IMG/VR virus record: IMGVR_UViG_3300020420_000008
Location: 32,001 to 96,000 of that record
Direction: 5' to 3' (one strand)
Source: a virus
Length of the DNA: 64,000 nucleotides
Position 1 is the stretch's first letter. Every line of letters begins with the position of its first letter. Position numbers and translations under genes: made by a program. A model generated the notes under the pieces. That model was not told the origin of the DNA, ran no database searches, and saw only the letters and a list, made by a program, of their open reading frames with translations. Positions 1-64,000 of this stretch are shown here, one piece after another.

Positions 1-184
1 AATGGTCCGCCCAACCCAAGAGGCAAAGAAGAGTATACTCTAGATGGTAAAATACCTATAAAGAATCAAACAGAATCTTGGTTGAAGTATACTGGACTTG
101 TGTGGTTAGTAGAAAATCCAAAAGCACCATTTGTATGGTTTGCTATTGGAATAAGTTTAATTTTATATATTGAAGGTTTTTGAA

Positions 185-442
185 ATGAGTAACAAAGCAT
201 ATCATAACAAGGGTTTTGCACCTGCTTTTTTATGGATTATATTTTTGACAATGATATTGCCTGTCTTAGGATTATTTACAATTGACGATACATGGGATAG
301 AGTTGTCAACAAATATGCAAGTGCATGGACTTCAGAGTGCTGGCAGAATAGCAAGCATGAGAGAGTATGTAGAGGTGATAATAATTGTAAATTTCTACGT
401 AACTTCTGCACAGAAAATACTTTTAGATGGAGAGAGAATTAA
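185..442 (+). CDS. hypothetical membrane protein
   Basis: ORF with one hydrophobic segment and C-terminal cysteines; ATG at 185 chosen over the upstream TTG. Confidence 0.55.
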   Translation: MSNKAYHNKGFAPAFLWIIFLTMILPVLGLFTIDDTWDRVVNKYASAWTSECWQNSKHERVCRGDNNCKFLRNFCTENTFRWREN

Positions 443-681
443 TGGCAGGTGCTATAAACACTCCTTTGAGACAATTGATTATGGACTGGACAGCCTGTCA
501 ACTATTAGAAAAAGATCCTAATAATCATATACTCAAAAAACTAAGATCCTGGGAACATCCAGAAACTATAGAGTTGAATAAGTTACTGACACAATTTGAG
601 AAAGATAAGAAGTATCCAGAACATTATAATCTGGATTGGGGTTCGATAAAGTATAATGATTTTATGAAAGACGGAGAGTGA
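442..681 (+). CDS. hypothetical protein
   Basis: ORF coupled to the previous stop (TAATG). Confidence 0.55.
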   Translation: MAGAINTPLRQLIMDWTACQLLEKDPNNHILKKLRSWEHPETIELNKLLTQFEKDKKYPEHYNLDWGSIKYNDFMKDGE

Positions 682-682
682 A

Positions 683-1120: not shown

Positions 1121-1851
1121 TGATATATGGTGAATTGCCTACTAAACCTGTGGTGTTTGCCGCCTGCGATATAAAATATTTCGTAGAACATGCACCATCT
1201 TTAATATATTCTATTAATGATATAGGTAAAGATATTCACATACATGTGTGTGATCCTGTAGAAGAAACTCACAAGATCGAATCTATATTAAAAGCAGATA
1301 TAGATGTAGATATAACTTTTAGTTATAGCGATATAGGTGCCACACCTATAGACATAAGAGCGTATTATTCATGCTTACGTTTTATGATGTTGCCTAAGCT
1401 TTTACCTCATGCTAAAAAGATGTTAGTAGTGGATACTGATTGTGTGTTTATGAAAGACTTTGAATATCCTAATACACCTACAGGTTACTTTCCTAGGAAA
1501 CCTTTACAAGGTACAATTGGTTGGGAAGCTAAAGGTACACAAGTGGCGGCAGGTTGTGTATATATGGACGAGAGAGCATTACCTGTAGCTGAAGCTTTAT
1601 CAGAAAAAATATCTCAAGGACCTATGAGATGGTTTATTGATCAGATAGCACTAGCTGAAATATTTGAACTTGTAAATGATAATGATATAACTAAGTTTGA
1701 TGGTAACTTCATGGACTGGGAATTTATTGAAGGTACAGTTATATGGACTGGAAAAGGACCTCGTAAACACGAAAATGAAACTTATCTAGAAGCTAAGAAT
1801 AAGTTTAACAGATTACCAAGTGCTGTTAGTAGAATTTGGGAAAAGGCATGA
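1120..1851 (+). CDS. GT-A fold glycosyltransferase-like protein
   Basis: RF...LVVDTDCVF (DxD motif) and W-F-I-DQ motif typical of nucleotide-diphospho-sugar transferases. Confidence 0.6.
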   Translation: MIYGELPTKPVVFAACDIKYFVEHAPSLIYSINDIGKDIHIHVCDPVEETHKIESILKADIDVDITFSYSDIGATPIDIRAYYSCLRFMMLPKLLPHAKKMLVVDTDCVFMKDFEYPNTPTGYFPRKPLQGTIGWEAKGTQVAAGCVYMDERALPVAEALSEKISQGPMRWFIDQIALAEIFELVNDNDITKFDGNFMDWEFIEGTVIWTGKGPRKHENETYLEAKNKFNRLPSAVSRIWEKA

Positions 1852-2834
1852 ACAGAAAAGTCCTGATACTAAAGCCTAGATTAGATTTACCATTCAAGAG
1901 ATTTGGTTTAGAAAAGAGAAAACCTCATATAGAACCAATACGAGTGCATTGGCAAAACTTTGTTGATAAACTTGCTGAATATCATGGTATGAGAAAAGAT
2001 AAAGTAGTTATCATAGAAGAACAGAAATGGAAGTTCTGCGAAAGATTTGTTAGAAGTGGATTTAATCCTGATATAGCTTATATACCTCATACAGACAAAA
2101 AATTATTTAATGGAAGAGAAGAGTGTAGATACTATATGCAAACAGTTTTTCCTTGGTTGTTTACAGTAGATAAAGATGGTTGGGGCGGAACATCTAGTCA
2201 CTCAAAATTAGGTTGGTATGAAGTTGCACCAGATGATGACGCAACATTTGAAGAGTTTAAGAAGAGAGCAATTAAAGGTGAGTCTAAGTATGATCAGCCT
2301 CATGCTGAATTTGTTAATCGTTTTGAAGATGGTTTTATATTCGTTCCTTTACAACTACCTCACGATGAAACTATAAAATATCATGCTAAAGTGGGTGTTA
2401 TTAATTTTGCAGTAGCTATCATGAAATGGGCTTATGAGAAAAGAATAAATGTTGTTTTTAAGAATCACCCTGCTAATCCAAATAGTCTAGAAGATGTAAG
2501 ATTATTTGCTGAACAATATAGTAATGCACATTGGCTAGAGCATCAAGTGAATATACATTCTCTCTTTGCACAAGCAAAAGCAGTATACGTTATAAATTCG
2601 GGCTCAGCTAAAGAAGCTATGTTGCATGATGTGCCTATAGTTAGATTTGGATTAGCTGATTACAATATGGCAGTTATTGAGGGCGATATAAAAGACTTAG
2701 AAAGAACTTGGCAAAAAGTCTTAAATTTAGAAAGAAGAACCATGAAAGAAAACTATAGAACATTTTACAATTGGTTTGTAAATCGTATTTGTTACGATAG
2801 TAGAAATATTGGTAGCTTTCTCAAACTTAGATAG
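1848..2834 (+). CDS. KpsS/KpsC-like capsule polysaccharide synthesis (Kdo-transferase-like) protein
   Basis: FVPLQLPHD, VFKNHP and VINSGSAKEAML..VPIVRFG motifs of the Capsule_synth family. Confidence 0.65.
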   Translation: MNRKVLILKPRLDLPFKRFGLEKRKPHIEPIRVHWQNFVDKLAEYHGMRKDKVVIIEEQKWKFCERFVRSGFNPDIAYIPHTDKKLFNGREECRYYMQTVFPWLFTVDKDGWGGTSSHSKLGWYEVAPDDDATFEEFKKRAIKGESKYDQPHAEFVNRFEDGFIFVPLQLPHDETIKYHAKVGVINFAVAIMKWAYEKRINVVFKNHPANPNSLEDVRLFAEQYSNAHWLEHQVNIHSLFAQAKAVYVINSGSAKEAMLHDVPIVRFGLADYNMAVIEGDIKDLERTWQKVLNLERRTMKENYRTFYNWFVNRICYDSRNIGSFLKLR

Positions 2835-3541: not shown

Positions 3542-3555
3542 GATTCGGATTACCA

Positions 3556-3793: not shown

Positions 3794-4111
3794 ATGAGTG
3801 ATTACAATATGCAAAGTATGGAGTTTGATACTGACATTATGAAAGATATCGAAAAACAAAGAATTGTAGAACAACTTGAAGAAGGTGTTCTCGTAATAAA
3901 TTTCACAAAAAAAGATGGTACTACACGTAGAATGAAAGCAACTCTACGTGAAGATATTCACGGATATGCTGGTGCTAATAGGGATCCTTTGGGACCTAAA
4001 GCTAATGTTGAACGTGAAATTCTTAAAGAGTATCTTGCAGTATATGACACTGAAAAGAAAGATTGGCGTTCTTTTCGTTGGGATTCATTAATAGGAGTTA
4101 ATAATGGCTGA
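3794..4111 (+). CDS. WYL_2/SH3-barrel protein (T4 a-gt.4-like)
   Basis: FTKKDGTTRRMKAT...VYDTEKKDWRSFR motif. Confidence 0.75.
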   Translation: MSDYNMQSMEFDTDIMKDIEKQRIVEQLEEGVLVINFTKKDGTTRRMKATLREDIHGYAGANRDPLGPKANVEREILKEYLAVYDTEKKDWRSFRWDSLIGVNNG

Positions 4112-5168
4112 AGCACAAGCAACTGAAAATCCAGATGAGTTTTCTTTAAAAACAGTACAGAAACAAGGTGGTATCATGAATGATGATGGTACATATCGTG
4201 AGTCATTTGGTGGTACTGAACTGATGACTAAAGCTTTAGAGCAGTATGTTGATAAAGATTTATTAGAGCAATTTAATATAATTAAATCTAGAGTTCGTAC
4301 CGTATCTGAAGATAAACCAAATGTTCTTTGGTTGCACGATTTATGGAATGATCCAGAAAATGAACATCTAAAAGATGCAGAAGCAAGAAAGAGATTTTCA
4401 CGTTTAGTTTTTGTTTCTAATTGGCAACTAACGACATATCAGTTAGGTTTAGGTGTGCCTTATTCTGAATCATTTGTTCTTAAAAATGCTATCGATCCTA
4501 TACAGGTTCCAGGAAATGCAGACGGAACTTTGAATAAAGATAAAGACGTAATACGTTTAATTTATCATACAACACCTCACAGAGGATTAAACATTGCAGT
4601 TGCTGGTGTTCAAGCTTTATGGGAAAATGGCTATAAAGATAAAATACATTTTGATGTATACTCTTCTTTTGAAGCTTATGGTTGGCCCGAAAGAGATGAA
4701 CCATACAAAGATATTTTCAAGACTATAGAAGAACATGATGGTATGACATATCATGGTTTTCAACCTAACAATGTTGTTAGAGAGGCTTTAGGTAAAGCAC
4801 ACATCTTTGCATATCCTAGCATATGGCAAGAAACATCATGTATATCAGCTATTGAAGCTTTGTCTGGTGGTGTACAAGTAGTATGTCCTAATCTTGGTGC
4901 ATTACCTGAAACTACAGGCAACTTTGCAACAATGTATAACTTTCATGAAAATCTACAGTTTCATGCTAATGTATTTGCAAATTTTCTCAAAGGTGCAATA
5001 GATAATTGTCAAAGTGACGATATGCAAAAGAAAGCAATCTTCGCTAAAAATTGGTGTGATAATTTCTATAACTGGGAAATTCGTAAAAACGAATGGATAG
5101 GCATGTTCAATGGATTACTTCAAGTAGAAAAATCAAAGAAAGAACTTGCGAATGGAAAAGGAACCTGA
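4104..5168 (+). CDS. GT4-family (GT-B) glycosyltransferase
   Basis: GGTE N-terminal motif and YPSIWQETSCISAIEA (E-x7-E) motif. Confidence 0.85.
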   Translation: MAEAQATENPDEFSLKTVQKQGGIMNDDGTYRESFGGTELMTKALEQYVDKDLLEQFNIIKSRVRTVSEDKPNVLWLHDLWNDPENEHLKDAEARKRFSRLVFVSNWQLTTYQLGLGVPYSESFVLKNAIDPIQVPGNADGTLNKDKDVIRLIYHTTPHRGLNIAVAGVQALWENGYKDKIHFDVYSSFEAYGWPERDEPYKDIFKTIEEHDGMTYHGFQPNNVVREALGKAHIFAYPSIWQETSCISAIEALSGGVQVVCPNLGALPETTGNFATMYNFHENLQFHANVFANFLKGAIDNCQSDDMQKKAIFAKNWCDNFYNWEIRKNEWIGMFNGLLQVEKSKKELANGKGT

Positions 5169-13615: not shown

Positions 13616-13642
13616 ATACATTGTGATGAACAAGGAGCATTA

Positions 13643-13978: not shown

Positions 13979-13990
13979 CAAGGAGAATCC

Positions 13991-15754: not shown

Positions 15755-15772
15755 AATAAATAAAAAAAGTAC

Positions 15773-15804
15773 TTGACGAATCACGAATCAATATGCTATA
15801 AATA
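15773..15804 (+). promoter_or_regulatory. composite sigma70 and T4-late promoter of the RNA operon
   Basis: TTGACG at 15773, tandem CGAATCA at 15777-15790, TGCTATAAATA containing the T4 late TATAAATA at 15797-15804. Confidence 0.75.
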
Positions 15805-15807
15805 AAG

Positions 15808-16145
15808 AGTTCGTTGAGACTAAGATGAAACTAGACTGGACATGGGGGCGGTACCCATCACCTCCACCAAGAGTACTTGCTCAGTACAACGCCTTCGTAG
15901 CTTCACAAGAGACAGTTCTTGAGACAGTTCGATGAAGACAAGAGTGGTAAGACACTTTAGAGTTTTTTGATAGTGGCGTATCAACAAGTATTCCTGTGGG
16001 GGTGAAATAGGATCGACAGGTAGGTAGTAGGTTAGTGGAGAACATTAAACTAAATGCAAACGATGATTTTGCACCTGTGGATTACGCACTAGCGGCTTAA
16101 TCGCACCGAGTTTAGAGAGTGTACTTGGGAACAGAAACACTCTCA
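15808..16145 (+). ncRNA. ssrA: circularly permuted two-piece tmRNA (alphaproteobacterial type)
   Basis: Acceptor piece ends ...ATGGGGGCGGTACCCATCACCTCCACCA at 15869. Coding piece starts GGGGGTGAAATAGGATCGAC at 15998, giving G3-U70. Tag ORF 16056-16100 reads ANDDFAPVDYALAA*. Outer ends are approximate. Confidence 0.95.
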
Positions 16146-16153
16146 CAGAATTT

Positions 16154-16227
16154 GCGAGTGTAGTATAATGGCATTATTTCTAGTTACCAACTAGAAGACA
16201 GAGGTTCGAATCCTCTCATTCGCTCCA
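16154..16227 (+). tRNA. tRNA-Gly with anticodon ACC
   Basis: GCGAGTG/CATTCGC acceptor, U73 plus CCA, TCTAG-TTACCAA-CTAGA anticodon arm, AGAGG-TTCGAAT-CCTCT T arm. Confidence 0.9.
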
Positions 16228-16251
16228 AGTTTTACTCCGACGGGAGTAAAA

Positions 16252-16457: not shown

Positions 16458-16464
16458 TAAATTT

Positions 16465-16500
16465 AAAAAGGTATTAGAAGCAGTTCTGATACCTTTTTTT
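16465..16500 (+). terminator. intrinsic terminator closing the RNA operon
   Basis: AAAAAGGTATTAGAA-GCAG-TTCTGATACCTTTTTTT hairpin with U tract. Confidence 0.85.
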
Positions 16501-30171: not shown

Positions 30172-31648
30172 TTTTATATGGTTCTTCGGGGTTGTCGAAG
30201 ACCGTAATGATCCTGTACAACTCGGAAGGTTGCGTGTCAGGTGTTATGGTTGGCACACCGATGATAAGAACGAAATACCTACTGACAGTCTTCCATGGGC
30301 AATACCTATCCAAGATGTCACTTCCGCAGGCGTCAGTGGAAAAGGTAAATCGCCTACGGGAATCCTTGAAGGATCGTGGGTTATTGGATTCTTTGCAGAC
30401 GGAAAGAAAGCACAACAACCATACATAATGGGAACAATAGCTGGAGCGCCTAAGTTTTCAGCAGATAGTTCAAGAGGTTTCAATGATCCAAATGGTAAAT
30501 ATCCTTTATATGTTGATGAGAGTGATGTTAACAAACTTGCGAGAGGCACTCCTACTATTACAATTGATAGTGATGGCACTATTGGAGCGCCTGAAGCGTC
30601 TTATAAAGCCGAGTACCCCTACAATCATGTAACGGAAACTGAGAGCGGACATGTCATTGAAGTTGATGACACACCTAATGCAGAACGTATACAAGTCTTT
30701 CATAAATCAGGAACAGTAATAGAAATACAACCTAGTGGCGATGTAGTCATACAACAAAAGAATAATTTTCAGACTATATCTGGTGATAATAATATACACA
30801 CTACTGGTAACTTAAATTATTTTGTTGATGGTGATATAAACTTCAATACAAGAGGAAACTTTAATGTTACAACATTTAATAATGTTGACATCAAATCAAA
30901 ACGAATAGATTTAAATAGTACAACAGGTGATTTGTATACACCAGAACTTATAGATGATGCTATATTATTTGAAACCAATATTGTAAAACTAAAACCTGAA
31001 GAAACACAAATAGAACCAGATGTAGAGTATCCAGATAATCCAGAACAAGTAGAACAAACTGACGGTAAGAATCCAGAAGATGTAAAATATCCAGAGAAAA
31101 CGCCAGCTACTTGTGGTTCACCTGATAACCCACACAGAAATCCAATTGATGTTGCAACAGAACTGATGAACGAAGGTGGTTGGAAAGAAACAGGTAGTAA
31201 TCCTAAAATTAAGTTTCTTTGGGACGAGATTGGTTATAATGGTTCTCAATACGCAGACAGAACAGCGTGGTGTGCTGTGTTTGCTGGTGCAGTACTCAAG
31301 CGTTCAGGTAATAAGTACATACAAACAGCATCATCGCAAGCATATTCACAATATGGTACTGAAGTAGCAACAGCACAAGGTGATAAAATAGATTTGACAA
31401 ATCTCAAAAGAGGAGATATATTGGTATTTCAAAGAGGTGGTTCTGCAAAAGGAACTGGACACGTTGCATTTGCCACAGGTAACTTCACAGATACGCATAT
31501 AGAAGTTATTGGCGGTAATCAAAGTAATAGTATTACACAAAAGAGATATAAACTTAGAGGTGGTTTCTTCTGGAGATTAAGAACAGTCAGAAGAGCGGTA
31601 GCATGTGACGATGGTACCACACCAGCTCCAACATCTACAGCAATATAA
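30146..31648 (+). CDS. gp5: baseplate hub/spike gp5 with C-terminal NlpC/P60-CHAP-like (TIGR02594-type) domain
   Basis: GVVEDRNDP..LGRLRVRC.G.H OB fold; YPYNHV.ETESGH; WCAVF...GHVAF...GGNQ. Confidence 0.9.
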   Translation: MKNFLGINDFIWFFGVVEDRNDPVQLGRLRVRCYGWHTDDKNEIPTDSLPWAIPIQDVTSAGVSGKGKSPTGILEGSWVIGFFADGKKAQQPYIMGTIAGAPKFSADSSRGFNDPNGKYPLYVDESDVNKLARGTPTITIDSDGTIGAPEASYKAEYPYNHVTETESGHVIEVDDTPNAERIQVFHKSGTVIEIQPSGDVVIQQKNNFQTISGDNNIHTTGNLNYFVDGDINFNTRGNFNVTTFNNVDIKSKRIDLNSTTGDLYTPELIDDAILFETNIVKLKPEETQIEPDVEYPDNPEQVEQTDGKNPEDVKYPEKTPATCGSPDNPHRNPIDVATELMNEGGWKETGSNPKIKFLWDEIGYNGSQYADRTAWCAVFAGAVLKRSGNKYIQTASSQAYSQYGTEVATAQGDKIDLTNLKRGDILVFQRGGSAKGTGHVAFATGNFTDTHIEVIGGNQSNSITQKRYKLRGGFFWRLRTVRRAVACDDGTTPAPTSTAI

Positions 31649-41900: not shown

Positions 41901-44884
41901 TAGAAAATAATAGACGATACACAATGAAAGACTTGAGAGGTATCGATGAGAGATTGAAGAATGCTGAATATTATTCTTCATTAAACGCTCTTGAAGCAAG
42001 TGTAAAGAATAAGCAGTTATTTAATGGCTCTGGCTTTGATAGATTTAAAAATGGTTTCTTTGTAGAAAACTTTGACGGACACAATCTATCAGATTCAACA
42101 AAGAAAGGCTACAGAGCATCTATTGATAGAAATAAAAATATACTACGTCCTTACTTCAAGAGAAGAGATATTCTCATGGAGAAAGATAAGTCATTTACTT
42201 CTACAAATGTTACACAGACAGGCAACTTACTCACATTAGCTTACACAAGTGTTTCTTTTATAAATCAAGATAAAGCAAGTAAAGCTAGAAATCCAGTTCA
42301 AGAATTAACATTTAACTGGCAAGGTAACTTGACATTAGATCCACCTATGGATAATACACCTGACATTACAGCATTGCCTGATATTCAAATGGATTTCTCA
42401 GGTATGTTCGATGCTTTTGAGCAATTGGCTGCCTCTACAGGATTTACTGGTACCGATTGGGGCGGTTGGATTAATACTGACAATGCTCAAATTACAAATA
42501 TAACAACAGAAACTAATAGTTCAACAATATCTACTGTAGGTACTTTGCAACAAGAACAGATACGACAAGGTATTCAAACATCTATTAGTCCTGCTAATCA
42601 GACATTTAACATAGGTAACTATGTACAACAAGTAGCTGTTCGTGAGTTTATGCGTTCAAGACTTGTTAAGTTTACTGCACATGGTATGAAACCTAGCACA
42701 AGAGTTTATCCTTATTTTGATGATGAACAAGTAAGTGGTTTTACAACACCAACAAACTCTGCACACGCAAATACTGCCGCCGAAGGTAGTGCATTGATTA
42801 CTAACTCAGCTGGTTCTGTTCATGGTGTGTTTAGAATACCTGATACAAATACCTTGAAGTTTAGAATTGGTACTAGACGATTTAAATTACAAGACGTTGC
42901 AAACAATCAAATAGCAAGTGATTTGACAACAACATCTTCTTTCGCAGATTATACTAGTATACCTCTTACAATTACTCAAAGAGGTGCTTCTATGAATCTT
43001 GTAGTTCCTCAAGTAAATACAGAGGACGTAACAGAAACAAGAACTCAGACTTCTAGAGTTGTACTCAGCACACGTTCTGTAAATCCAGATCCTATATCAC
43101 AAACATTCTCAGTAAATGAAGAGCAATCTTCTGGTGTTTTTATCACTAAAGTTGATTTATACTTCTTCAGAAAAGCAGGTAATTTACCAATCACTGTTCA
43201 GATACGTGAGGTAGAAAACGGACATCCTACGCCTAATATTCTGCCATACGCATCGAAAACTTTATTTCCATCATCTATAAATGCAAGCACAACCTCTGCT
43301 ACAACAGCGACAACATTTACATTTGACTCACCAGTATTTTTAAAGAACTACAAAGATTATTGTATCACAATAGTTCCTGCTGGTAACTCAGATGAGTATG
43401 CAGTATGGGTGGCAAAACTAGGTGCAAAAGATGTTGATACAGGCGAGTTAATTGATAAACAACCAGGTGCTGGTGTTCTACTTAGTTCTGCAAACGATAA
43501 AACATATACAGCTATTCAATCTGAAGACTTAAAATTTCAGTTGCATAGAGCCGAGTTTTCAAAGACACAAGGTACTGTATTCATAGAAAATCCTGATAAC
43601 GATTTCTTCACATATGATAATAAAGCTGGCACATTTAATCCTGAAGAAAAGATACGTGCTGAATCTGTATTGAAGTTTTCTAATAATCAGACTGTATCAG
43701 TAGGGCATGTTCTTAAAACGAAAGCTACATCAGGTGCTAACTTTGCAAATGGTACTGTAAGACAGATTGTACAAAACAGTGTAGCTGGACAAGTAACTGT
43801 CAAGCTAGATGCTTATGGTGATTTTCCAACAACCGCAAGTTCTAATACTAATAATGTTTATATAAGTGGTAGTACAACACACGGAGGTTGGGCTGGAAAT
43901 ACAGTTTTATTTACAGCAAATACAAATAACGGTTTCTTAGATTTTATAGATGAACTCAATGAAAAGATGACTCTGAAAAACTCAACGTATACAGGAAACG
44001 CAAATGGTTTTATAAGAGGGCAAGTTAGTGGTGCTTCTGCTAGAGTTTTAACCGCAGAAAATATTGTAAACAATGTCATGGTGCCTAAGATACCTGTTAT
44101 GAACTTAGCAAACACATCTTCAACATTTTCTGTAAGAACCGCAACTACAGGTGGTGTTATTAATACTAACTTTAAAAGTTTAGATTTAGAGGTAGAGAAT
44201 CCATTTACAGATAATGCGAAATCAGTTCATAGTAAAGTAAATGAATCAGCTTTGACTGCCGTGAATGGTTCTAAGAAAACTCTTGTCGTTAGAGGATTTT
44301 TAAATACAAGTGATTCTAAAGTATCACCAATCATAGATTTGTCAAGAGCAAATTCATACATTTTAGAAAATGTTATTAACGATAGTTCTACAAATGAAGA
44401 GAAGCAAGAAGTTGGTAGTGCAGTAACACGATACTTCTCAAAACCAGTTGAACTTGCTGACGGACAAGATGCTGAAGATTTAAGAATATATGTAACAGCT
44501 TATAAGCCTTCAGGTACAAACGTAAAAGTTTATGCACAATTATTAGCATCATCAGATGGTGAGCCTCTCGCTGATAAAGATTACACTTTGTTAACGCAAG
44601 CTACATCAGCAAGTGTTATTTCTGATACAGCCGATACAAATGATTTTAAAGAGTTCGAATATACTCTATCTGCAAATACTGATGGACAGAATTTCTTAGG
44701 AAGTAATAATGATAATCAGGCGAAACTAAATACCGCTGATAGTAATATTGTTTCGTATAGAACTTCAAGTGGTGTTGTGCATAAGACATATAAAACATTT
44801 GCTTTTAAGATTGTTTTGACATCAACATCAAATGCAAGCGTACCTTTTGTAAAAGATTTGAGAGCAATAGCATTACAGGTGTAA
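38915..44884 (+). CDS. large virion structural protein (VrlC/DUF4815-like)
   Basis: NLNQSPYYDDFD, VQARELTQLQ, RRYTMKD and DLRAIAL motifs. Confidence 0.8.
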   Translation: MALETNLNQSPYYDDFDETKNYNRILFRPGFAVQARELTQLQTILQNQIERFGNEILVDGTIVTGSALKIEDIDFVKLRDKDANNRVILLTDFFSGGVVANATITGTTSGMTAQLIDVADGSEAANPDNMTLFVKYTNSGTNNTTKAFVDNEVLTLRTRTGASFIVAANTGSSSSTGLGTRASVSDGIIFHKGHFVRVGAQSHIVDKYSTSPSKKVGFQTVETLVNSNIDSSLADNASGSTNFAAPGADRLKMLPTLASRVTGAANTATFFTIAELKDGVLIRNNKDTMYSDIGKHVAMKFHETLGNYATEPFTIRVREHLKSSENLGRYNSDEGGDANKLIAEVDKGIGYVNGQKVQLINPTPLEIDKATDFTTRDARVLTQTFGNYVFIKEVAGTWDFQGLREVSLRSAAGTAISSKTFGDTTAPGSEIGTAKVRGFSYHSGIAGTADGQFKLYLFDIRMNSTKNFADVRSIFEAESTHNSIADIVLTGSNAVLQEPSNNLLVLPFSALGTKTLKDSSNNVDTQFVFRTEKTVTFTPSGASLSATVTANSAHAGGVETLNETGSPLSAGNERKVIVVSKAQTLTVPRSGHIASFGTKTITGAGGSKFNEDYQAGDIIRLTDSTNPFTGSAGTEDHIIASINSATSITTKDTISATRSGLGTSDAVSHRQVFPKGYVFDTSANGIIQSSSTQHNINLQQANVVSSFSASVYFNVLRSSAVPTAKTIKKSRYININTQSHSAGANGPWSLGVADVFKIEAVYLGADTSSVTTSDQNVTSHFDLDTGQKDDMYDIGKLVKKSTSSLNITNKAILVKFSFFERNTSQGIGFLSVDSYPVDDSTESATTIKTFEIPKYKSVTTGKTYELRDSVDFRPMKANTCDPTTTATIAGSPTNPGAEKSAPNTFTIDSDGAYNVAPDENFQADIQQYLPRKDRIVITEEGKLEAIKGIPAETPKVPEEKANAMTLGVLNVPVYPSLSSKVARDNDKGDYGVKLTLENNRRYTMKDLRGIDERLKNAEYYSSLNALEASVKNKQLFNGSGFDRFKNGFFVENFDGHNLSDSTKKGYRASIDRNKNILRPYFKRRDILMEKDKSFTSTNVTQTGNLLTLAYTSVSFINQDKASKARNPVQELTFNWQGNLTLDPPMDNTPDITALPDIQMDFSGMFDAFEQLAASTGFTGTDWGGWINTDNAQITNITTETNSSTISTVGTLQQEQIRQGIQTSISPANQTFNIGNYVQQVAVREFMRSRLVKFTAHGMKPSTRVYPYFDDEQVSGFTTPTNSAHANTAAEGSALITNSAGSVHGVFRIPDTNTLKFRIGTRRFKLQDVANNQIASDLTTTSSFADYTSIPLTITQRGASMNLVVPQVNTEDVTETRTQTSRVVLSTRSVNPDPISQTFSVNEEQSSGVFITKVDLYFFRKAGNLPITVQIREVENGHPTPNILPYASKTLFPSSINASTTSATTATTFTFDSPVFLKNYKDYCITIVPAGNSDEYAVWVAKLGAKDVDTGELIDKQPGAGVLLSSANDKTYTAIQSEDLKFQLHRAEFSKTQGTVFIENPDNDFFTYDNKAGTFNPEEKIRAESVLKFSNNQTVSVGHVLKTKATSGANFANGTVRQIVQNSVAGQVTVKLDAYGDFPTTASSNTNNVYISGSTTHGGWAGNTVLFTANTNNGFLDFIDELNEKMTLKNSTYTGNANGFIRGQVSGASARVLTAENIVNNVMVPKIPVMNLANTSSTFSVRTATTGGVINTNFKSLDLEVENPFTDNAKSVHSKVNESALTAVNGSKKTLVVRGFLNTSDSKVSPIIDLSRANSYILENVINDSSTNEEKQEVGSAVTRYFSKPVELADGQDAEDLRIYVTAYKPSGTNVKVYAQLLASSDGEPLADKDYTLLTQATSASVISDTADTNDFKEFEYTLSANTDGQNFLGSNNDNQAKLNTADSNIVSYRTSSGVVHKTYKTFAFKIVLTSTSNASVPFVKDLRAIALQV

Positions 44885-57273: not shown

Positions 57274-60200
57274 ATGGCAAGTGTTAACACAATTATAATA
57301 AAAAACTCAGCCGTAACTGGTAAAACACCAGTTGCCTCTGATTTAGAAGTAGGCGAATTGGCTCTGAATACGGCTGATGGTTTACTTTTTACAAAGCAAG
57401 CTGATAGTACAATTATCAAGATAGCAGGAGATAATCTATCTTTAACAAATGAAGTTGTAAATGATGGAGCCGCCAACGAAGGTGCTAAAATAAATCTTAT
57501 CAACGCTCTAGCATCAGGTAACGTAAACGAAGGATCGTTTACAATCGAAGGTTCTTCCACTGTACAAGTAACTCATGACTCAACAAATAATAAAGTCGTA
57601 CTAAGTTCAGGTGGTGGAACAGTTACAGGTATATCCTCAGGAGGCACAACTGTTAATCCAGCATCAGGAGTTATAGACTTTGTTGGTGGGAATGGTATTA
57701 CTGTAACTGCTAATGATGGCACTGATGCCTTAACTTTAGCAATAGGTGGTGCTGATAGTAGTTCAAATGCAGTTTCCGGTGTCAAGACATATTCAACACA
57801 ACAGATATTCAACGCTGGACTTACAACAGGTAATGGAGCTACTAGTGCAGGATTCATTCACTTTTTAGAAGATAGTACCGATGGCACTAACAAAGTAATA
57901 TTGCAAGGTGCATCAAGTGGTAGTGATATAACCTTAACTCTTCCTGTTGTAACAAGTACAACTCTTGTAGGTGAAGCTGGTGCCCAAACTCTTACAGAAA
58001 AAACACTTACCGCACCAACAATTAACGGCGTAGTTGGAGGTACAACTACTTCACAGACAATTACAACACTTAACACATCAACTATAAATCTTGGTGGGGC
58101 GGCAATAACATCAACAGCCGCCGAACTTAACTTACTTGATGGTGTAGCAGGACTTGTACAAGCTGACTTTACAAAACTGGCGGCAGTCGATGCAACGGCA
58201 GCCGAACTTAATATATTAGACGGAGATACTTCTGCTACATCTACCACAGTTGCTGATGCAGACAGAGTAGTATTGAACGACAATGGTACTATGGTACAGG
58301 TTGCCGTAACAGACTTGGCTGCCTACTTTGACGATGAAATCACAGCAATGCCTAATCTTGTTGCAACTGGTGCGTTAAACTCAGGTACTATTACTTCTGG
58401 TTTTGGTAACATAAACAACGGCGCTTCAACAATAACTACAACAGGACAAATCAGTGGTGGCGCTCTTGTAGTTGATACTATAACAGTTGATGGTTCAACA
58501 GTAACTGCATCAGGAGATTTAACACTAGATAGTGGTGGTGATATCGTTTTAGATGCTGACGGCGCAAACGTAACAATAAAAGATGCTGGCGCATCAGTAT
58601 TAGATATTGCAAACAGTTCAGGAGACGTAGAACTTACAGTTAGCACAGCCGACAAAAACTTTGCAATCAAAGGAACAGATGGTAGTTCAGGCATAACAGC
58701 CTTAGACATAGACATGGCACTTGCAGGTAAAGCAACCTTTAATGGTGAAATAGTCACAACAAGCTCTATTACTGGTGGTTCTTTAGTTGCAGATGGTACA
58801 ACAATAAACAACTCAACTATAACTGATACTGGATCCAACTTTAAAATAGACGCTTCCGGTTCAATTAATCTTGATGCCGCCGGTTCTGGAGCCGTGGGTA
58901 CTATTTCGTTTGCAGATGCTGGATTAAACTATGGTATAATCTTACCAAGTGCTAATGACGATTTCATGCTTCGTCCAGCACAAACTGATAAAGACATAAT
59001 ACTTCAAGGTAATGATGACGGTTCTGTAATAGATATGTTAAAGCTAGATGCTAGTGATGCAGGTAATGCAACATTTAGTGGCTCAATAACATCAACAGCA
59101 GGAGATGTAACCATAACAGCTGGTGATTTAAATATCACTAAGAGTGCATCTGAACAAGCAGAAATAAATCTTTTTGAAGCTACTGGCGCAGGCACTAACA
59201 AAATCACAGTAAAACCTGCTACAGCAACTTTAGGTGGTGATACTGTTCTTACTTTACCGGCAGAAACTGGCTTAGTAATTACAACCGCATCTTCAAACAT
59301 AGTTAACGCAAACATAAGTGGATCGGCGGCAATAGCAGATAGTAAGCTTGCTAAAATTACAACAACTGATAAAGTTGGTGCCCAATCTATCGATATAACT
59401 TCAGCAACAGACGGCTCTTCTGGTGGCGGCGCATTTGCTCTAGCTGATGATGACTTTTTCTTGGTACATGACACTGGTGCTGGAGCTACTAAGAAAGTAT
59501 TGATGTCACAACTAGAAACTTATGTTGGTATCGGTGCAGGTGGTTTAGCAATCACAGCAATTGACATAGATGGTGGTACAGATATTGGTGCTGATCTTGT
59601 AGATGGTGACTTGTTCATTGTTGACGATGGTGCAAACGGAACAAATAGAAAATCTGCAATATCTAGAATTGGTGATTATATCTTTAATAAGATATCAACC
59701 GCCACAGCCACGGACATATCTATAACCGATGCTGGTGTTGCTACTATTAATCCTAATTCTGTTGCAATGGGTACTGACACAACTGGTAACTATGTTGCTA
59801 CTATAGCTGTTGGTTCAAACTTACAAACAACTGGCGCCTCTACAGGCGAAACTATAGCACACACAATCAACTTAGCTACAAATCCAGACATTGCAGGAAC
59901 ATTAGCTGTTACTGGTGATGTCACAATGGACGCATCTGCTAGTGTTGCTGGTAATCTAACTGTTACAGGAAACTTAGAAGTAAACGGTACAACAACTACT
60001 GTTAATACTGATAACTTATCAGTAGAAGATTCACTAATCGAACTTGCGAGAGGTAACACCTCTGATACACTAGACGTAGGGTTCTTTGGAAATTTCGGCG
60101 CCGGCTCAGATGTTGATCAAGCAGGTTTAGTAAGAGATGCAGATCATGGTTCAACAGTAAACGGTGTAACACTACCTAAACCTTTCGTACTATTTACCGA

Positions 60201-60508: not shown

Positions 60509-62065
60509 ATGCCTAGTGTTAATGTAATAACCTTAAAACGGTCCGCCGTTAAGGGTAAAGTCCCTACAATTAGTAACCTGACTTCAGGTGAATTGGCAGT
60601 TAACACTAGAGATGGTAGACTATATTCAGCAAACACTACTCACGTATATGAAATAGGTGCAAATCCCCATAACCTAACAGTGGGTTCTGGTGGATTTTCT
60701 ATTGCAAATGGTAATATTACATTTCCTAGTGCAGATGGTACTGAAAATCAAATACTTAAAACAGATGGAGCAGGCACTCTTTCATTTCAAGATGCAGGCT
60801 CAATAGGTACAACCAATCTAACTCTCACAGGTAATACAGCTTTCTCAGGCAACAATATCTTTGCTGGTACTGTTACTTTTAATGAAGAAGTAACATCAAC
60901 ACAACAATTTAACTTTGAAGGACCGGTTACATTTAAAGGTGACGCAGTTTATCAAGGTTCTTCAAGACACACCGCAAATGTTTCCATTCGTGCTTCTCTC
61001 GCTGTACAGCAATATGAATTTACATCTAATACAGGACAAACATTATTTAAAGGTACTTCAGATAGTCAAGGACTTTTAAGTTATACTCCTGGTAATATAT
61101 CAGTATATAAAGATGGTATAAAATTACGTCCCACTATAGACTTTGCAGAAACGGATTCTGGCACTGTTACACTTCAAGACGGAACATCTAATAATAATAT
61201 TATTACAATTGAACAATATGGTTCAAATCATTTTCAACATTACACTTATGTTGCAACAAACGGACAAACAACATTTACAGGTGCTGACTCTACAGGAAAA
61301 ACATTATCATATACTGCACAAAATCCTTTAGGCGGTGGTGTTAAAGTATATCTAAACGGTGTAAGATTACGAGCAAATACAGATGTTGTAGCAACAAACG
61401 GAACAGATGTTGTTCTTCAAGATGGTACAAGTAATAATGATGTTGTGATGATTGAATCTTTAGGTGCTTATCCTTATCAATCATTTGAATATACAGCAAT
61501 CAAGGGACAAACAACATTTAACGGACTTGATAGATTTGGTAAACAGTTAGAATATGAAATAGACAAAGCTACAGTCTACTTAAATGGTGTAAAACTTAAA
61601 GAAGGCACAGACTGGACTGCTATTAATGGTGAAAGAGTTGTATTACAAGAACCTGTTTCAAATAATGATGTTATAACTATTGACTCACATGGACCGGAAC
61701 CTGCAATCCTTTCCGCTCAAAATGAAATTCATTATGCTAATACAACAGTTCTAAAAACAAAAGAGATTTTATTATTTGACGATTTATCATCAACAGTTGT
61801 AGATCAATTTCCTACAACAGATTTCATTTCAGCACAATATCTTATACAAGCTACAAATCCAAACGGCGTATCATTTGCCACCTACAATGTTGCACATGAT
61901 AGAGGACAATCATTCTTATCAGAATTTGGACGTATAAATAGCAATGGAAGTATTATGACAGTTACCTCAGATGTTTCTGAGAACTTGTTAAGAATTAAGG
62001 TTGAGCCACAGACAACAAATACAAAGCTTAAAATTCAAGCTACAAGAATGAGGAAAGCAAGATAA
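60509..62065 (+). CDS. virion/fibre protein with three internal ~78-aa repeats
   Basis: GELAVNTRDGRLY module; three GQT.F.G...L.Y...VY..G..L...D repeats. Confidence 0.7.
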   Translation: MPSVNVITLKRSAVKGKVPTISNLTSGELAVNTRDGRLYSANTTHVYEIGANPHNLTVGSGGFSIANGNITFPSADGTENQILKTDGAGTLSFQDAGSIGTTNLTLTGNTAFSGNNIFAGTVTFNEEVTSTQQFNFEGPVTFKGDAVYQGSSRHTANVSIRASLAVQQYEFTSNTGQTLFKGTSDSQGLLSYTPGNISVYKDGIKLRPTIDFAETDSGTVTLQDGTSNNNIITIEQYGSNHFQHYTYVATNGQTTFTGADSTGKTLSYTAQNPLGGGVKVYLNGVRLRANTDVVATNGTDVVLQDGTSNNDVVMIESLGAYPYQSFEYTAIKGQTTFNGLDRFGKQLEYEIDKATVYLNGVKLKEGTDWTAINGERVVLQEPVSNNDVITIDSHGPEPAILSAQNEIHYANTTVLKTKEILLFDDLSSTVVDQFPTTDFISAQYLIQATNPNGVSFATYNVAHDRGQSFLSEFGRINSNGSIMTVTSDVSENLLRIKVEPQTTNTKLKIQATRMRKAR

Positions 62066-62427
62066 TGGCAAAGAGTAAGGCAAGAATATTTGCAGATTTA
62101 GCAGATAAGTATTCGCAAGTATCAACGACAGCAACAGGTACAGCAATACAAACAGTTGACTCTGTACAAGCTTTAGATACTAGTTCTGTAGTTTTTAATA
62201 TTATGGCAACAAAAGGAACCGACTTTCATTATTGTACTGTAGTAGTCGCTATGACTTCAGCTACAGATTGTGACTTTACACAGTTCGGTGATATTCAATC
62301 TTCTAATCTCGTTACTTTTACGGCAGACTCAGACATAGGTCCTCCTAGAATTTTAAGACTCAGAGCAACGCCTGCAACTACTGGTACCCTAAATCTAAAA
62401 ATAACACGCATAGGCGTTGCTAGATAA
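62065..62427 (+). CDS. small virion protein related to the C-terminus of the preceding gene
   Basis: shared FG.I.S...LR/KI pattern. Confidence 0.55.
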   Translation: MAKSKARIFADLADKYSQVSTTATGTAIQTVDSVQALDTSSVVFNIMATKGTDFHYCTVVVAMTSATDCDFTQFGDIQSSNLVTFTADSDIGPPRILRLRATPATTGTLNLKITRIGVAR

Positions 62428-62470
62428 CTCTTATTATAAATAAGAGAAATTAGACGGATAGGGAAATCTA

Positions 62471-64000
62471 ATGGCATCTTCAAAAGAATTTGTAGTCAAA
62501 CATGGTTTGGCTATTGGAACACCAAGCAATATAGTTTTCAATTCAAGCGGAGTTTTACAAGCTTCAGCAACGGCAAACGCAACAATCAATATAACAGGTT
62601 TCGATATTGATGGTGCTACTGACATAGGAGCAGATTTAGTCGATGCTGATTTGCTCATTGTTGATGATGGTGCTGGAGGTACGAATAGAAAAACAGCACT
62701 ATCAAGAATCAAGAAATATGTTTACTCAGCCGTATCAGGTGACGCAACAGTAAGTGATACTGGTGCTTTAACAATCGCCGCCACATCAATTGAGAACTCT
62801 ATGTTAGCAGGTTCTATTGCTAACGATAAATTGTCAAATTCTACAGTAAGCTTTGGTGGAGTTTCATTGGCACTCGGTGCGTCAGACGCAACACCAGCTT
62901 TTGATTTGTCAGATGCTACAAATTATCCCACAAGTTCTCTATCTGGTACTATCACAAACACACAGTTAGCAGGTTCTATTGCTAACTCAAAACTAACTAA
63001 TTCAACTATTACAGTTACAGATGGCTCTAACTCTACTGCAACAGCGTTAGGTGGTACAATAACTTTTTCTGGTACTGCAAACGAAACTACAGTCTCAGAA
63101 AGTTCAGGTACAGTCACAGTAGGTTTACCAGATAATGTTACGTTAGCATCAAATCTAAACGTAGGAAAAAATGTAGTCATTAGTGGTAACTTAACAGTAT
63201 CAGGAACACAAACTGTAATAGACACTAATACTTTAAATGTTGGTGATAATATTATCACACTGAATAGTGATGAGACAGGTACACCATCACAAAATGCTGG
63301 TATCGAAGTCGAAAGAGGTACAGGTACAAACGTACAACTAAGATGGAATGAAACTTCAGATAAGTGGCAGTTTACAAATGATGGTTCTTCATATGAAGAT
63401 ATAGGTGCTGGTATCACAGTACAAGAAGAAGGTTCTGCATTATCAACGGCGGCTACTACATTAAACTTTGTAGGTTCGGCAGTTACAGCTACAGGTTCAG
63501 GTGCTACAAAAACAATTACAATAGCTGATAGTGATCTTGTTGCTGACACATCGCCTCAGTTAGGCGGCGACTTAGATTTAAATGGTAGTAGTATTATAGG
63601 TTCAGGACATATTGATATTGGTGATAACAACAGATTGAAATTAGGTGCATCAGATGATTTACAAATATATCATGATGGTTCTCATAGTTATATCAATGAA
63701 ACTGGTACTGGATATCTAATACTAAAGTCTAGTGAAATACAAATACAGTCTGATGGTGGTGAAGACATGGCTAAGTTTGAGCCAGATGGTTCAGTCAGAC
63801 TTTATCACAATAATGTAGAAAAAATTACAACAACTTCTGGTGGCGTCACAGTAGCTGGTAATATAGTTGTAACAGGAACAGTTGATGGTGTAGATGTGGC
63901 GGCTCTTAGCACATCAGTATCAGGTAAATTAACAGACGTAGTAGATGATACTTCACCTCAACTCGGTGGTAGCTTAGATGCACAAACAAATAATATAACA
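62471..64000 (+). CDS. tail fibre-like protein, truncated by the window end (not in ORF track)
   Basis: MASSKEFVVKHGL..., apparently open to the window edge; late promoter at 62435-62442; DTSPQLGG.LD repeats. Confidence 0.75.
   Translation, partial: MASSKEFVVKHGLAIGTPSNIVFNSSGVLQASATANATINITGFDIDGATDIGADLVDADLLIVDDGAGGTNRKTALSRIKKYVYSAVSGDATVSDTGALTIAATSIENSMLAGSIANDKLSNSTVSFGGVSLALGASDATPAFDLSDATNYPTSSLSGTITNTQLAGSIANSKLTNSTITVTDGSNSTATALGGTITFSGTANETTVSESSGTVTVGLPDNVTLASNLNVGKNVVISGNLTVSGTQTVIDTNTLNVGDNIITLNSDETGTPSQNAGIEVERGTGTNVQLRWNETSDKWQFTNDGSSYEDIGAGITVQEEGSALSTAATTLNFVGSAVTATGSGATKTITIADSDLVADTSPQLGGDLDLNGSSIIGSGHIDIGDNNRLKLGASDDLQIYHDGSHSYINETGTGYLILKSSEIQIQSDGGEDMAKFEPDGSVRLYHNNVEKITTTSGGVTVAGNIVVTGTVDGVDVAALSTSVSGKLTDVVDDTSPQLGGSLDAQTNNIT

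What the first reader, a model, noticed from the sequence alone, without database searches (positions are those of the whole stretch)
1..64000. Window-wide purge of the degenerate motif GCHGCD/HGCDGC, visible as forced rare codons at every Ala-Ala
Seen: Ala is mostly GCA/GCT in this AT-rich DNA, yet every one of the >50 Ala-Ala pairs I traced in CDSs uses one of three forms. These are GCC-GCC (e.g. ~1159, ~9905, ~39414, ~45194), nnG-GCG-GCn (e.g. ~811, ~28355, ~29531) or nnG-GCW-GCC (~28425, ~42427, ~58197, ~58317). The preceding codon is also forced to end in G in the last two forms. So GCNGC survives only as GCCGCC/GGCGGC or GGCWGCC, which is equivalent to removing GC-H-GC-D from both strands. 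The only exception I found by eye is AGCGGC at 16091, inside the constrained tmRNA tag. A rough base-composition estimate gives several dozen expected sites. Inference: very strong selection from a sequence-specific DNA-cutting activity. The rule does not match simple GCWGC (TseI/ApeKI) or GCNGC (Fnu4HI) avoidance. It could be a new specificity, or GCNGC cleavage blocked by GCC/GGC context or modification.
Basis: partly seen in the sequence, partly recalled or inferred. Interest (0 to 1): 0.9.

Follow-up and report, generated by a model that had tools for sequence, protein, structure and literature searches.

The report
Restriction-site purge with GG/CC exemption
This uncultured ocean T4-like phage has rewritten its codons to erase GCNGC and about fifteen other restriction-type words, but keeps copies whose first G follows another G. 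This pattern is best read as the footprint of an unidentified phage-made DNA mark at GG/CC steps.

Summary
The window has 68 GCNGC sites, and 67 are GCCGCC/GGCGGC or GGCWGCC. The whole 146.6-kb contig has 140, and 137 obey. GCHGCD occurs 3 times against 220±8 in codon-preserving shuffles. All 129 Ala-Ala pairs but two are recoded to fit.

The rule is not specific to GCNGC. A 5' G or 3' C flank also exempts GCGC, GGCC, GACC and GWGCWC, and the exempt forms sit at neutral frequency. CGCG, CTGCAG and GAATTC are absent in every context.

Cultured relatives purge different words and show the same exemption. In HTVC008M, 83/83 GATC and 43/43 GANTC sites are flanked. In Mosig, all 19 GATC sites read GGATCC. 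Podophages of the same host, and cyanophage P-SSM2, purge these words with no exemption.

So a single new enzyme specificity is unlikely. The best reading is many nuclease targets plus a myophage-encoded shield on GG/CC steps.

One candidate writer (low confidence) is a DUF4338/DruA-like protein outside the window. Its best structural match is the phage Mu DNA-modifying enzyme Mom. No methylase of a fitting type and no deazaguanine genes were found.

Other agents in this scan have seen the same kind of flank rule on other marine phage DNA. I found no description of it in the papers I searched.

The parts
1..64000 (.). Window-wide purge of GCNGC, except where both GC steps lie in GGC/GCC. GCGC, GGCC, GACC and GWGCWC are purged in parallel, with the same 5'-G/3'-C exemption.
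16091..16096 (+). The only GCNGC in the window that breaks the rule (AGCGGC). It encodes the terminal Ala-Ala of the tmRNA tag.
15770..16191 (+). Permuted alphaproteobacterial-type tmRNA (tag ANDDFAPVDYALAA). It carries the exception and hints at an alphaproteobacterial host.
   Evidence: ARAGORN. Rfam alpha_tmRNA RF01849, 89 bits
16154..16227 (+). tRNA-Gly(ACC), the only tRNA gene of the contig. It is possibly relevant because Mom-type enzymes use Gly-tRNA as donor. This is a lead only.
   Evidence: PMC13219725
28425..28431 (.). GGCTGCC, one of four GCWGC sites in the window. All four carry both flanks.
42427..42433 (.). GGCTGCC, a two-sided exempt GCWGC.
58197..58203 (.). GGCAGCC, a two-sided exempt GCWGC.
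58317..58323 (.). GGCTGCC, a two-sided exempt GCWGC.
1159..1164 (+). Example of GCC-GCC (Ala-Ala written in rare codons). The window has 34 GCCGCC.
30199..30203 (+). AGACC, the only one of the contig's 53 GACC not preceded by G.

Best explanation
The phage is under strong selection from many sequence-specific nucleases. By synonymous recoding it has removed GCNGC, GCGC, GGCC, GACC, GWGCWC, CGCG, GAATTC, CTGCAG, AGATCT, AACGTT, CTTAAG and others.

Its own DNA also carries a shield, most likely a post-replicative base modification, on the G:C pair that follows a G. That is a GG/CC step, apparently GGH/DCC. A site whose first G is preceded by G (or whose last C is followed by C) is then hemi-modified, and a site flanked on both sides is fully modified.

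Nucleases that a hemi-modified site blocks leave one-sided forms at neutral frequency (GCGC, GACC, and partly GGCC). Nucleases that need a mark in both half-sites leave only two-marked forms (GCNGC, GWGCWC). Words that cannot hold a GG at their edge (CGCG, CTGCAG), or whose enzyme ignores the mark (GAATTC), are absent in all contexts.

Shown: the purge, the exemption rule, its neutrality, its presence in relatives on other words, and its absence in podophages of the same host.
Inferred: that the shield is a covalent modification, and that the phage writes it.
Lead only: the writer is the DUF4338/DruA-like, Mom-like GNAT protein at genome 126113-127420 (L004:16113-17420), next to gp46/gp47.
For: 1. 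Size and reality of the purge.

2. The same exemption on unrelated words, with exempt forms at shuffle expectation (observed/expected sites):
- GCGC: unflanked 0/36.6, one-sided 42/43.9, two-sided 12/6.8.
- GGCC: 0/55.6, 7/15.9.
- GCWGC: 0/82.5, 0/27.1, 11/2.4.
- GWGCWC: 0/21, 0/21.4, 5/7.1.
- GACC: HGACC 1/290, GGACC 52/58.

3. No conserved position beyond the single flank base. A longer overlapping methylase site is therefore unlikely.

4. Relatives purge other words and show the same exemption:
- HTVC008M: GATC 83/83 and GANTC 43/43 flanked.
- Mosig: 19/19 GATC read GGATCC.
- 91 DUF4338-bearing UViG loci: leftover GATC 5% unflanked and GTAC 2%, against a 64% baseline. C-start and A/T-start words show no exemption.

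5. Phages without the exemption:
- Pelagibacter podophages HTVC011P and HTVC019P, which share the laboratory host of HTVC008M and Mosig, have 0 GATC of about 118-130 expected, flanked forms included. Their few leftover GANTC and GCNGC sites have no G flank.
- P-SSM2 has 0 GCGC of about 100 expected.

6. The purge is recent and lineage-specific:
- L010 (capsid protein 90% identical) keeps GCNGC and GGCC but purges HGACC (0/32).
- L093 (DUF4338 96% identical) shares the G000 pattern.

7. The candidate writer:
- DUF4338 is among only six G000 ORFs found in HTVC008M and Mosig but not in Melnitz, and the only one of them with a predicted enzymatic fold that fits. The others are CobT, CobS and three structural or partial matches.
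- The AF2 model has pLDDT 92.6.
- The best of 48,161 PDB chains is phage Mu Mom, Z 9.4 over 169 residues.
- A GNAT motif-A-like Q-x-x-G...GGK is invariant.
- Mom is a single GNAT enzyme that hypermodifies dsDNA in a 3-base context and blocks many restriction enzymes (PMC13219725, PMC7261163).
Against: - No modification has been observed directly.
- No C5 or N4/N6 methylase of the PF00145 or PF01555 type, no TGT/DpdA, and no QueC/QueD/radical-SAM gene is on the contig. CheckV rates the contig 76% complete.
- The only methylase-like gene (176 aa, NPPW motif) looks adenine-type and is missing from HTVC008M and Mosig.
- A simple GG mark would always sit on the inner Gs of GGCC, yet GGCC is purged. 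The model needs the enzymes to differ in sensitivity.
- GGCC leftovers in HTVC008M and in the DUF4338-bearing UViGs are not flank-enriched.
- GAATTC is not exempted.
- Melnitz lacks DUF4338 but still shows a weaker G-flank bias.
- Cyanophages S-SM2 and S-T4 carry distant DUF4338 homologues and show no flank bias, though their depletion is weak.
- The Mom match is tied within 1 Z unit with generic GNATs and has no sequence-level support.
- The DUF4338-positive phages are all related, so the association rests on few independent lineages.
- SAR11 genomes rarely encode R-M systems (PMC7029224), so the selecting nucleases are unidentified.
Confidence: 0.55

Rival explanations
1. One new restriction specificity, GCHGCD read on each strand, explains the pattern.
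For: GCHGCD is the exact minimal description of what is missing among GCNGC sites.
Against: The same H...D flank requirement would have to hold independently for GCGC, GGCC, GACC and GWGCWC here, and for GATC, GANTC and GTAC in relatives. Podophages of the same host remove the flanked forms as well. The closest relative, L010, purges HGACC but not GCNGC, so the words are separate targets that share one exemption.
Confidence: 0.04
2. The selecting nucleases are a related family, or one non-classical defence system with exchangeable specificity. A shared structural element makes them unable to cut when a G precedes the site.
For: - One flank rule holds across many words.
- SAR11 genomes almost never carry classical R-M systems (PMC7029224), so an unknown nuclease class is needed anyway.
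- No fitting modification gene has been identified with confidence.
Against: - Podophages HTVC011P and HTVC019P, propagated on the same host strain as HTVC008M and Mosig, purge GATC completely, including the roughly 40 expected flanked copies each.
- P-SSM2 purges all GCGC.
- The split between words exempted by one flank and words needing two fits hemi- versus full modification better than a fixed flank read-out.
- The exemption is absent for C-start and A/T-start words.
Confidence: 0.15
3. Host-encoded methylases with longer overlapping sites (for example GGNCC or GGATCC types) protect the flanked forms during growth in the host.
For: GGWCC and GGGCC/GGCCC are subsets of GGNCC, and Mosig keeps GATC only as GGATCC.
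Against: - No conserved base lies beyond the one flank position.
- One-sided flanks suffice for GCGC, GACC, and for GATC and GANTC in HTVC008M. Known palindromic methylase sites do not explain that.
- At least seven different words would need matching host methylases.
- Podophages of the same host gain no such protection.
Confidence: 0.1
4. The phage avoids the targets of its own nucleases, used against host DNA or rival phages. An example is the HNH protein beside the methylase and DUF4338 genes. The purge would then be self-avoidance rather than host restriction.
For: - A 467-aa protein with a C-terminal HNH_4 match (21.7 bits, cut-off 22) and a DGNNR motif sits in the cassette at genome 127462-128865.
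- R-M systems are scarce in SAR11 (PMC7029224).
Against: About fifteen different words are purged, far more than the nuclease genes seen. HTVC008M and Mosig lack this HNH gene but show purges and the exemption. Podophages with none of these genes purge overlapping word sets.
Confidence: 0.06

Closest known systems
Restriction-site (short palindrome) avoidance in virulent dsDNA phages
   Same: Many 4-6 base restriction-type words are depleted to zero by synonymous codon choice. The purged set differs between close relatives.
   Different: Here the purge is conditional on one flanking base, and the exempt forms sit at neutral frequency. I found no description of such a flank rule in the papers I searched. 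From my own knowledge, surveys of site avoidance score whole sites only.
Phage Mu Mom (GNAT-fold, Gly-tRNA-dependent N6-carbamoylmethyl-adenine in SAS context)
   Same: In Mom, one phage enzyme marks a base in a very short degenerate context after replication and so blocks many unrelated restriction enzymes (PMC13219725, PMC7261163). The DUF4338 protein of this phage has a GNAT fold whose best PDB match is Mom. The contig's only tRNA is tRNA-Gly.
   Different: - The exempt sites here (GGCGC, GCCGCC, GGGCC) contain no adenine, so the marked base would be G or C in GG/CC, not A in SAS.
- There is no sequence similarity to Mom.
- The protein is twice Mom's size and has an extra N-terminal helical domain.
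- No modification has been demonstrated.
7-deazaguanine DNA modification by phage DpdA
   Same: It replaces G in short sequence contexts and protects against many restriction enzymes. This rests on my own knowledge of the phage deazaguanine literature, which I did not check here.
   Different: No TGT/DpdA, QueC, QueD or radical-SAM gene is found on the contig.
Bacillus phage multispecific C5-methyltransferases (GGCC, GCNGC, GDGCHC and similar targets)
   Same: They counter the same kinds of target words that are purged here. This rests on my own knowledge.
   Different: Those enzymes methylate the whole site, so no purge is needed. No C5-methyltransferase gene is present.
DruA (DUF4338) of type I Druantia
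   Same: Pfam DruA matches at E 1.5e-22 and PADLOC DruA at 8e-21.
   Different: This is a stand-alone gene in a lytic phage with no DruB-E nearby, and DruA's biochemistry is unknown. PMC10853773 lists the Pfam DUF4338 domain as a GNAT-like acetyltransferase domain.

Membership tests
Restriction-site avoidance (counter-selection of nuclease targets) | Words depleted far below a codon-preserving expectation on both strands | tested here: met
   GCHGCD 3 against 219.8 +/- 7.9. HGACC 1 against 290. CGCG 0 against 37.6. GAATTC 0 against 37.8.
Restriction-site avoidance (counter-selection of nuclease targets) | The purged set differs between close relatives (host-specific pressure, not a compositional bias) | tested here: met
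   HTVC008M keeps GCNGC and GACC but purges GATC, GANTC and TCGA. L010 (capsid protein 90% identical) keeps GCNGC and GGCC.
Restriction-site avoidance (counter-selection of nuclease targets) | A matching nuclease exists in the host | not testable with these tools
   The host is unknown (uncultured viral contig). The literature reports R-M systems in only 1 of more than 100 SAR11 genomes (PMC7029224).
Single new restriction specificity GCHGCD | The flank requirement is peculiar to GCNGC | tested here: not met
   The same flank exemption holds for GCGC, GGCC, GACC and GWGCWC, and for GATC, GANTC and GTAC in relatives.
Context-specific protective DNA modification (Mom-like) | The exemption depends only on a short fixed context and is independent of which site is involved | tested here: met
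   One flank base decides, and no further conserved positions exist. The rule holds across at least seven words in four genomes and 91 UViG loci.
Context-specific protective DNA modification (Mom-like) | The property belongs to the phage, not to the host or the nucleases | tested here: met
   Podophages propagated on the same host strain as HTVC008M and Mosig show no exemption. Caveat: their natural hosts may differ, and the host of this contig is unknown.
Context-specific protective DNA modification (Mom-like) | A non-canonical nucleoside is present in virion DNA | not testable with these tools
No chemistry is available.
Mom family (GNAT DNA acyltransferase) | GNAT fold with closest structural similarity to Mom | tested here: inconclusive
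   Mom (8bv8_B) is the top hit, Z 9.4, 169 residues aligned, rmsd 4.0. Generic GNATs follow at Z 8-8.9, and Foldseek E-values are only about 0.03.
Mom family (GNAT DNA acyltransferase) | Sequence homology to Mom | tested here: not met
   A profile search of PDB sequences gives no Mom hit at E <= 10.
Phage 7-deazaguanine (DpdA) modification | DpdA/TGT plus preQ0 pathway genes | tested here: not met
   PF01702, PF06508, PF01242 and PF04055 give no match at E <= 1 on the contig. The contig may be incomplete.
Cytosine methylation shield (C5 or N4 methyltransferase) | A C5 or N4 DNA methyltransferase gene | tested here: not met
   PF00145 and PF01555 give no match. The only methylase-like ORF has an NPPW motif and weakly resembles adenine methylases.

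The most novel reading that the evidence does not exclude
DUF4338/DruA proteins are Mom-like DNA acyltransferases. In pelagimyophages they would write a previously unknown hypermodification on G or C at GGH/DCC steps, possibly using glycyl-tRNA from the phage's own unusual tRNA-Gly(ACC). This would explain the flank-conditional purge across a large group of ocean phages. It would also suggest that DruA marks self DNA in type I Druantia.
Probability: 0.18. Interest if true: 0.9.

Novelty: new variant of a known kind. Interest (0 to 1): 0.78.

Why it matters
The sequence alone gives a precise, testable prediction: the DNA of an abundant group of ocean phages, including the cultured SAR11 phages HTVC008M and Mosig, carries an undescribed mark at GG/CC steps. 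The size of the purge (220 GCNGC-type words removed, every Ala-Ala recoded) shows intense nuclease pressure. This is hard to square with the reported near-absence of restriction-modification systems in SAR11, so either an unrecognised nuclease defence or unrecognised hosts are involved. If the DUF4338 lead holds, it would add a new base modification, extend the Mom enzyme class to G or C, and give a first biochemical hint for the DruA component of Druantia. The exemption rule is also a cheap computational screen for hidden DNA modifications in metagenomic viruses.

Tried and rejected
- megablast of 8 kb of the window against GenBank phages: no match.
- Pfam searches of the contig for C5 methylase, N4/N6 methylase, TGT, QueC, PTPS and radical SAM: all negative.
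- Pfam, PHROG, PADLOC and NCBIfam scans of about 35 contig-specific ORFs gave sugar, nucleotide-metabolism and structural genes. The only DNA-modifying enzymes were the 176-aa NPPW methylase-like ORF and DUF4338.
In 50 kb of KVP40 I saw no clear flank bias (GGCC: 6 of 12 unflanked), so I did not rely on it.
- Simple dinucleotide marks other than 'G after G / C before C' (GpC methylation, G followed by S, C preceded by S) were worked through by hand against the counts. I rejected them because they would always mark GCGC or GCNGC internally.
- A phosphorothioate link 3' of the flank G was considered. No Dnd-type genes were seen. The DndC hit on the DUF4338 N-terminus is far below cut-off.
- Reading the DruA literature gave nothing on its function.
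- A profile search of PDB sequences with the DUF4338 alignment found no relative.


Full report
**What the DNA is**

The window is bases 32001-96000 of a 146,609-bp IMG/VR viral contig (35% GC, linear, CheckV 76%).
- The gp46-like gene and the DUF4338 gene were matched by tblastn to GenBank phages. gp46 is about 48% identical to its homologues in Methylophilales phage Melnitz and marine cyanomyophages. DUF4338 matches at full length only Pelagibacter phages Mosig and HTVC008M.
- An ORF-by-ORF tblastn against HTVC008M finds homologues of the capsid, terminase, portal, sheath, polymerase and gp46/gp47 genes.
- The window carries a permuted alphaproteobacterial-type tmRNA (Rfam alpha_tmRNA, 89 bits), one tRNA-Gly(ACC) and a manA RNA motif.
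- It is therefore an uncultured pelagimyophage-like T4-type phage, probably with an alphaproteobacterial host.

**Checking the observation**

Exact counting gives 68 GCNGC sites in the window.
- They are 34 GCCGCC, 29 GGCGGC and 4 GGCWGCC.
- The one exception is AGCGGC at 16091-16096, in the tmRNA tag.
- On the whole contig, 137 of 140 sites obey. The other two exceptions both lie in one Laminin_G_3 ORF near the contig end.

I called 168 ORFs (94% coding) and shuffled synonymous codons within genes 200 times.
- GCHGCD and its complement occur 3 times against 219.8 +/- 7.9.
- GCCGCC/GGCGGC occurs 126 times against 11.3.
- Total GCNGC (140) equals the minimum seen in any shuffle. Only sites forced by the protein sequence remain.

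Of 129 Ala-Ala pairs (58 in the window):
- 76 are GCC-GCC.
- 42 are GCG-GCN, of which 41 follow a G-ending codon.
- 10 are GCW-GCC, all after a G-ending codon.
- 1 is GCC-GCA.

Isolated Ala codons are 87% GCA/GCT. An equivalent and more telling statement of the rule is that GCNGC survives only if both of its GC steps lie in GGC/GCC.

**The rule is not about GCNGC**

A k-mer survey and flank tables show a broad purge. CGCG, GAATTC, CTGCAG, AGATCT, AACGTT, CTTAAG, GCTAGC, GCATGC, CACGTG and GAGCTC are all at zero. Several G-starting words are purged conditionally.

| Word | Unflanked (obs/exp) | One flank | Both flanks |
|---|---|---|---|
| GCGC | 0/36.6 | 42/43.9 | 12/6.8 |
| GGCC | 0/55.6 | 7/15.9 | 0/1.3 |
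| GCWGC | 0/82.5 | 0/27.1 | 11/2.4 |
| GWGCWC | 0/21.0 | 0/21.4 | 5/7.1 |
| GAATTC | 0/27.4 | 0/10.4 | 0/0.3 |

- GACC not preceded by G occurs 1 time against 290 expected. GGACC occurs 52 times against 58.
- A 5' G (equivalently a 3' C) therefore exempts a site, and the exempt forms are selectively neutral.
- GCGC and GACC need one flank. GCNGC and GWGCWC need a mark in both half-sites.
- GAATTC, and all words that cannot form GG at their edge, are never exempt.
- Logos of the exempt sites show no conserved base beyond the single flank position.

**Relatives**

- HTVC008M does not purge GCNGC (GCHGCD 293 observed) or GACC.
- It purges GATC (83 against 456), GANTC (43 against 456) and TCGA (2). 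All 83 GATC and all 43 GANTC sites carry the G/C flank.
- Mosig keeps 19 GATC sites, and every one reads GGATCC.
- In 91 UViG loci (1.07 Mb) that carry a DUF4338 homologue, the share of leftover sites without a flank is 5% for GATC, 2% for GTAC, 0% for GANTC and 26% for GCGC. The baseline is 64%.
- In the same loci GGCC, C-start words and A/T-start words show no exemption.
- The purged word set changes fast. L010 (capsid protein 90% identical) purges HGACC (0/32) and CGCG but keeps GCNGC and GGCC. L093 (DUF4338 96% identical) matches this contig.

**Controls that locate the cause**

- Pelagibacter podophages HTVC011P and HTVC019P were propagated on the same host strain as HTVC008M and Mosig. 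They have no GATC at all (about 118-130 expected, of which about 40 would be flanked). They also have no GCGC and no GGCC. Their few leftover GANTC and GCNGC sites carry no G flank.
- Cyanomyophage P-SSM2 has no GCGC of about 100 expected.
- The exemption is therefore a property neither of the nucleases nor of host methylation. It belongs to this myophage group.
- That, together with the split between one-flank and two-flank words, fits a hemi- or fully modified site. It points to a phage-written mark on the G:C pair that follows a G.

**Search for the writer**

- The contig has no C5 or N4/N6 methylase of the common Pfam types. It has no TGT/DpdA, QueC, QueD or radical-SAM gene.
- After gp47/gp46, at genome 125368-128865 (outside the window), lies a cassette of four ORFs:
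  - a 176-aa methylase-like ORF (motifs EPCAGDG and NPPW; PHROG DNA methyltransferase, E 6.5e-35; weak adenine-methylase similarity);
  - a 73-aa ORF;
  - a 435-aa DUF4338/DruA protein (Pfam E 1.5e-22);
  - a 467-aa protein with a marginal HNH_4 match.
- The small methylase is absent from HTVC008M, Mosig and Melnitz, so it cannot be the shared shield.
- DUF4338 is among only six ORFs shared with HTVC008M and Mosig but missing from Melnitz. Melnitz shows only a weak G-flank bias.
- The AlphaFold model of DUF4338, built from a 40-sequence alignment, is confident (pLDDT 92.6).
- An exhaustive structural comparison against 48,161 PDB chains puts phage Mu Mom first (Z 9.4, 169 residues). Ordinary GNAT acetyltransferases follow at Z 8-8.9. 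Foldseek also lists only GNATs, all weakly.
- An invariant Q-P-x-G...G-G-K resembles the GNAT cofactor-binding motif (the resemblance is my own reading).
- Mom is a GNAT enzyme that uses Gly-tRNA-Gly to hypermodify adenines in the SAS context of double-stranded DNA, and it blocks many restriction enzymes (PMC13219725, PMC7261163).
- The only tRNA gene of this contig and of HTVC008M is an unusual tRNA-Gly(ACC). In HTVC008M it lies just after DUF4338-CobT-CobS.

These are leads, not proof.
- The Mom match is within the tie range and has no sequence support.
- Cyanophages S-SM2 and S-T4 have distant homologues without visible flank bias.
- The positive phages are all related to each other.

**Open problems**

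- A plain GG mark would always sit on the inner Gs of GGCC, yet GGCC is purged. GGCC is also not exempted in HTVC008M or in the DUF4338-bearing UViG loci.
- The marked base (G, or the paired C) and its chemistry are unknown.
- The selecting nucleases are unknown, and the literature reports R-M systems in only one of more than 100 SAR11 genomes (PMC7029224).

**Verdict**

- A single GCHGCD enzyme is not supported.
- The alternative, protection by a context-dependent modification, is the best explanation in a generalised GG/CC form. I put it at about 0.55 confidence, and at about 0.2 that DUF4338 is the writer.
- Other agents in this scan reported the same type of flank-conditional purge on other marine phage genomes. 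I re-tested the parts that bear on this report. HTVC008M and the podophage contrast hold. The KVP40 claim did not hold in the 50 kb I checked.

Noticed in passing
window 16154-16227; L008:41140-41213 (HTVC008M): The only tRNA gene of this contig and of HTVC008M is a tRNA-Gly with the unusual anticodon ACC. In HTVC008M it lies directly after the DUF4338-CobT-CobS genes. Mosig and Melnitz carry other tRNAs and no tRNA-Gly.
   Followed up: partly
window 16233-16460: A manA RNA motif (Rfam RF01745, 68 bits) lies directly downstream of the tmRNA and tRNA-Gly.
   Followed up: no
L004:15368-15898 (genome 125368-125898, outside the window): A 176-aa minimal DNA methyltransferase-like ORF (motifs EPCAGDG and NPPW; PHROG 799, E 6.5e-35), absent from HTVC008M, Mosig and Melnitz. 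This contig does not purge GANTC and purges GATC only mildly, whereas HTVC008M purges both. The enzyme may therefore be an adenine methylase that covers such sites.
   Followed up: partly
L004:17462-18865 (genome 127462-128865, outside the window): A 467-aa protein with a DGNNR motif in its N-terminal half and a marginal C-terminal HNH_4 match. The layout resembles GmrSD-type modification-sensing nucleases, but Pfam does not confirm DUF262. It is specific to this lineage.
   Followed up: partly
genome 144279 and 144647 (L005:17279, 17647): The two non-tmRNA violations of the GCNGC rule both lie in one 1297-aa Laminin_G_3 repeat ORF, next to a paralogous 1124-aa ORF. This may be a recently acquired or fast-evolving gene that has not yet been purged.
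   Followed up: no
L001:228-2751 (genome 228-2751): The DNA polymerase is read as two overlapping ORFs (480 and 362 aa). They match the N- and C-terminal parts of the single HTVC008M polymerase gene. This could be a split gene, a frameshift or a sequencing error.
   Followed up: no
window 1836-2834, 4104-5168; L001:11582-12382, 13441-17265: A set of sugar genes: a KpsC/KpsS-type capsule synthesis (Kdo transferase-like) gene, a group 1 glycosyltransferase, Kdo-8-phosphate synthase, and a 1274-aa cytidylyltransferase/DUF5824 protein. They may modify the host surface. A role in DNA glycosylation is not excluded.
   Followed up: no
window 27862-29954: A zeta-toxin-like P-loop kinase (Pfam E 2e-5), followed by a 409-aa protein of unknown family (PHROG 33928), inserted among the baseplate genes.
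   Followed up: no
L008:34548-35555 (HTVC008M gp104): The HTVC008M gene directly after gp46 has a weak PHROG match (E 1.4e-4) to T4 beta-glucosyltransferase. Melnitz has a 'nucleotide modification associated domain' gene at the same position. The slot after gp46 looks like a hotspot for DNA-modification genes in this phage group.
   Followed up: no
L120-L126 (Pelagibacter podophages), L007-L009, L090: All cultured SAR11 phages examined purge many 4-base palindromes completely (GATC, TCGA, GCGC, GGCC, CCGG, CGCG, CTNAG). Yet the literature reports R-M systems in only 1 of more than 100 SAR11 genomes (PMC7029224). The selecting agent is unexplained.
   Followed up: partly
L107-L111 + L091 (Melnitz): In the last 50 kb of Melnitz, all 8 CCGG and all 23 CCNGG sites carry the G/C flank (GCC/GGC). 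Genome-wide, CCGG shows G on 15 of 30 flank sides. This is a different context (GC rather than GG), as other agents of this scan reported for other marine phages.
   Followed up: partly
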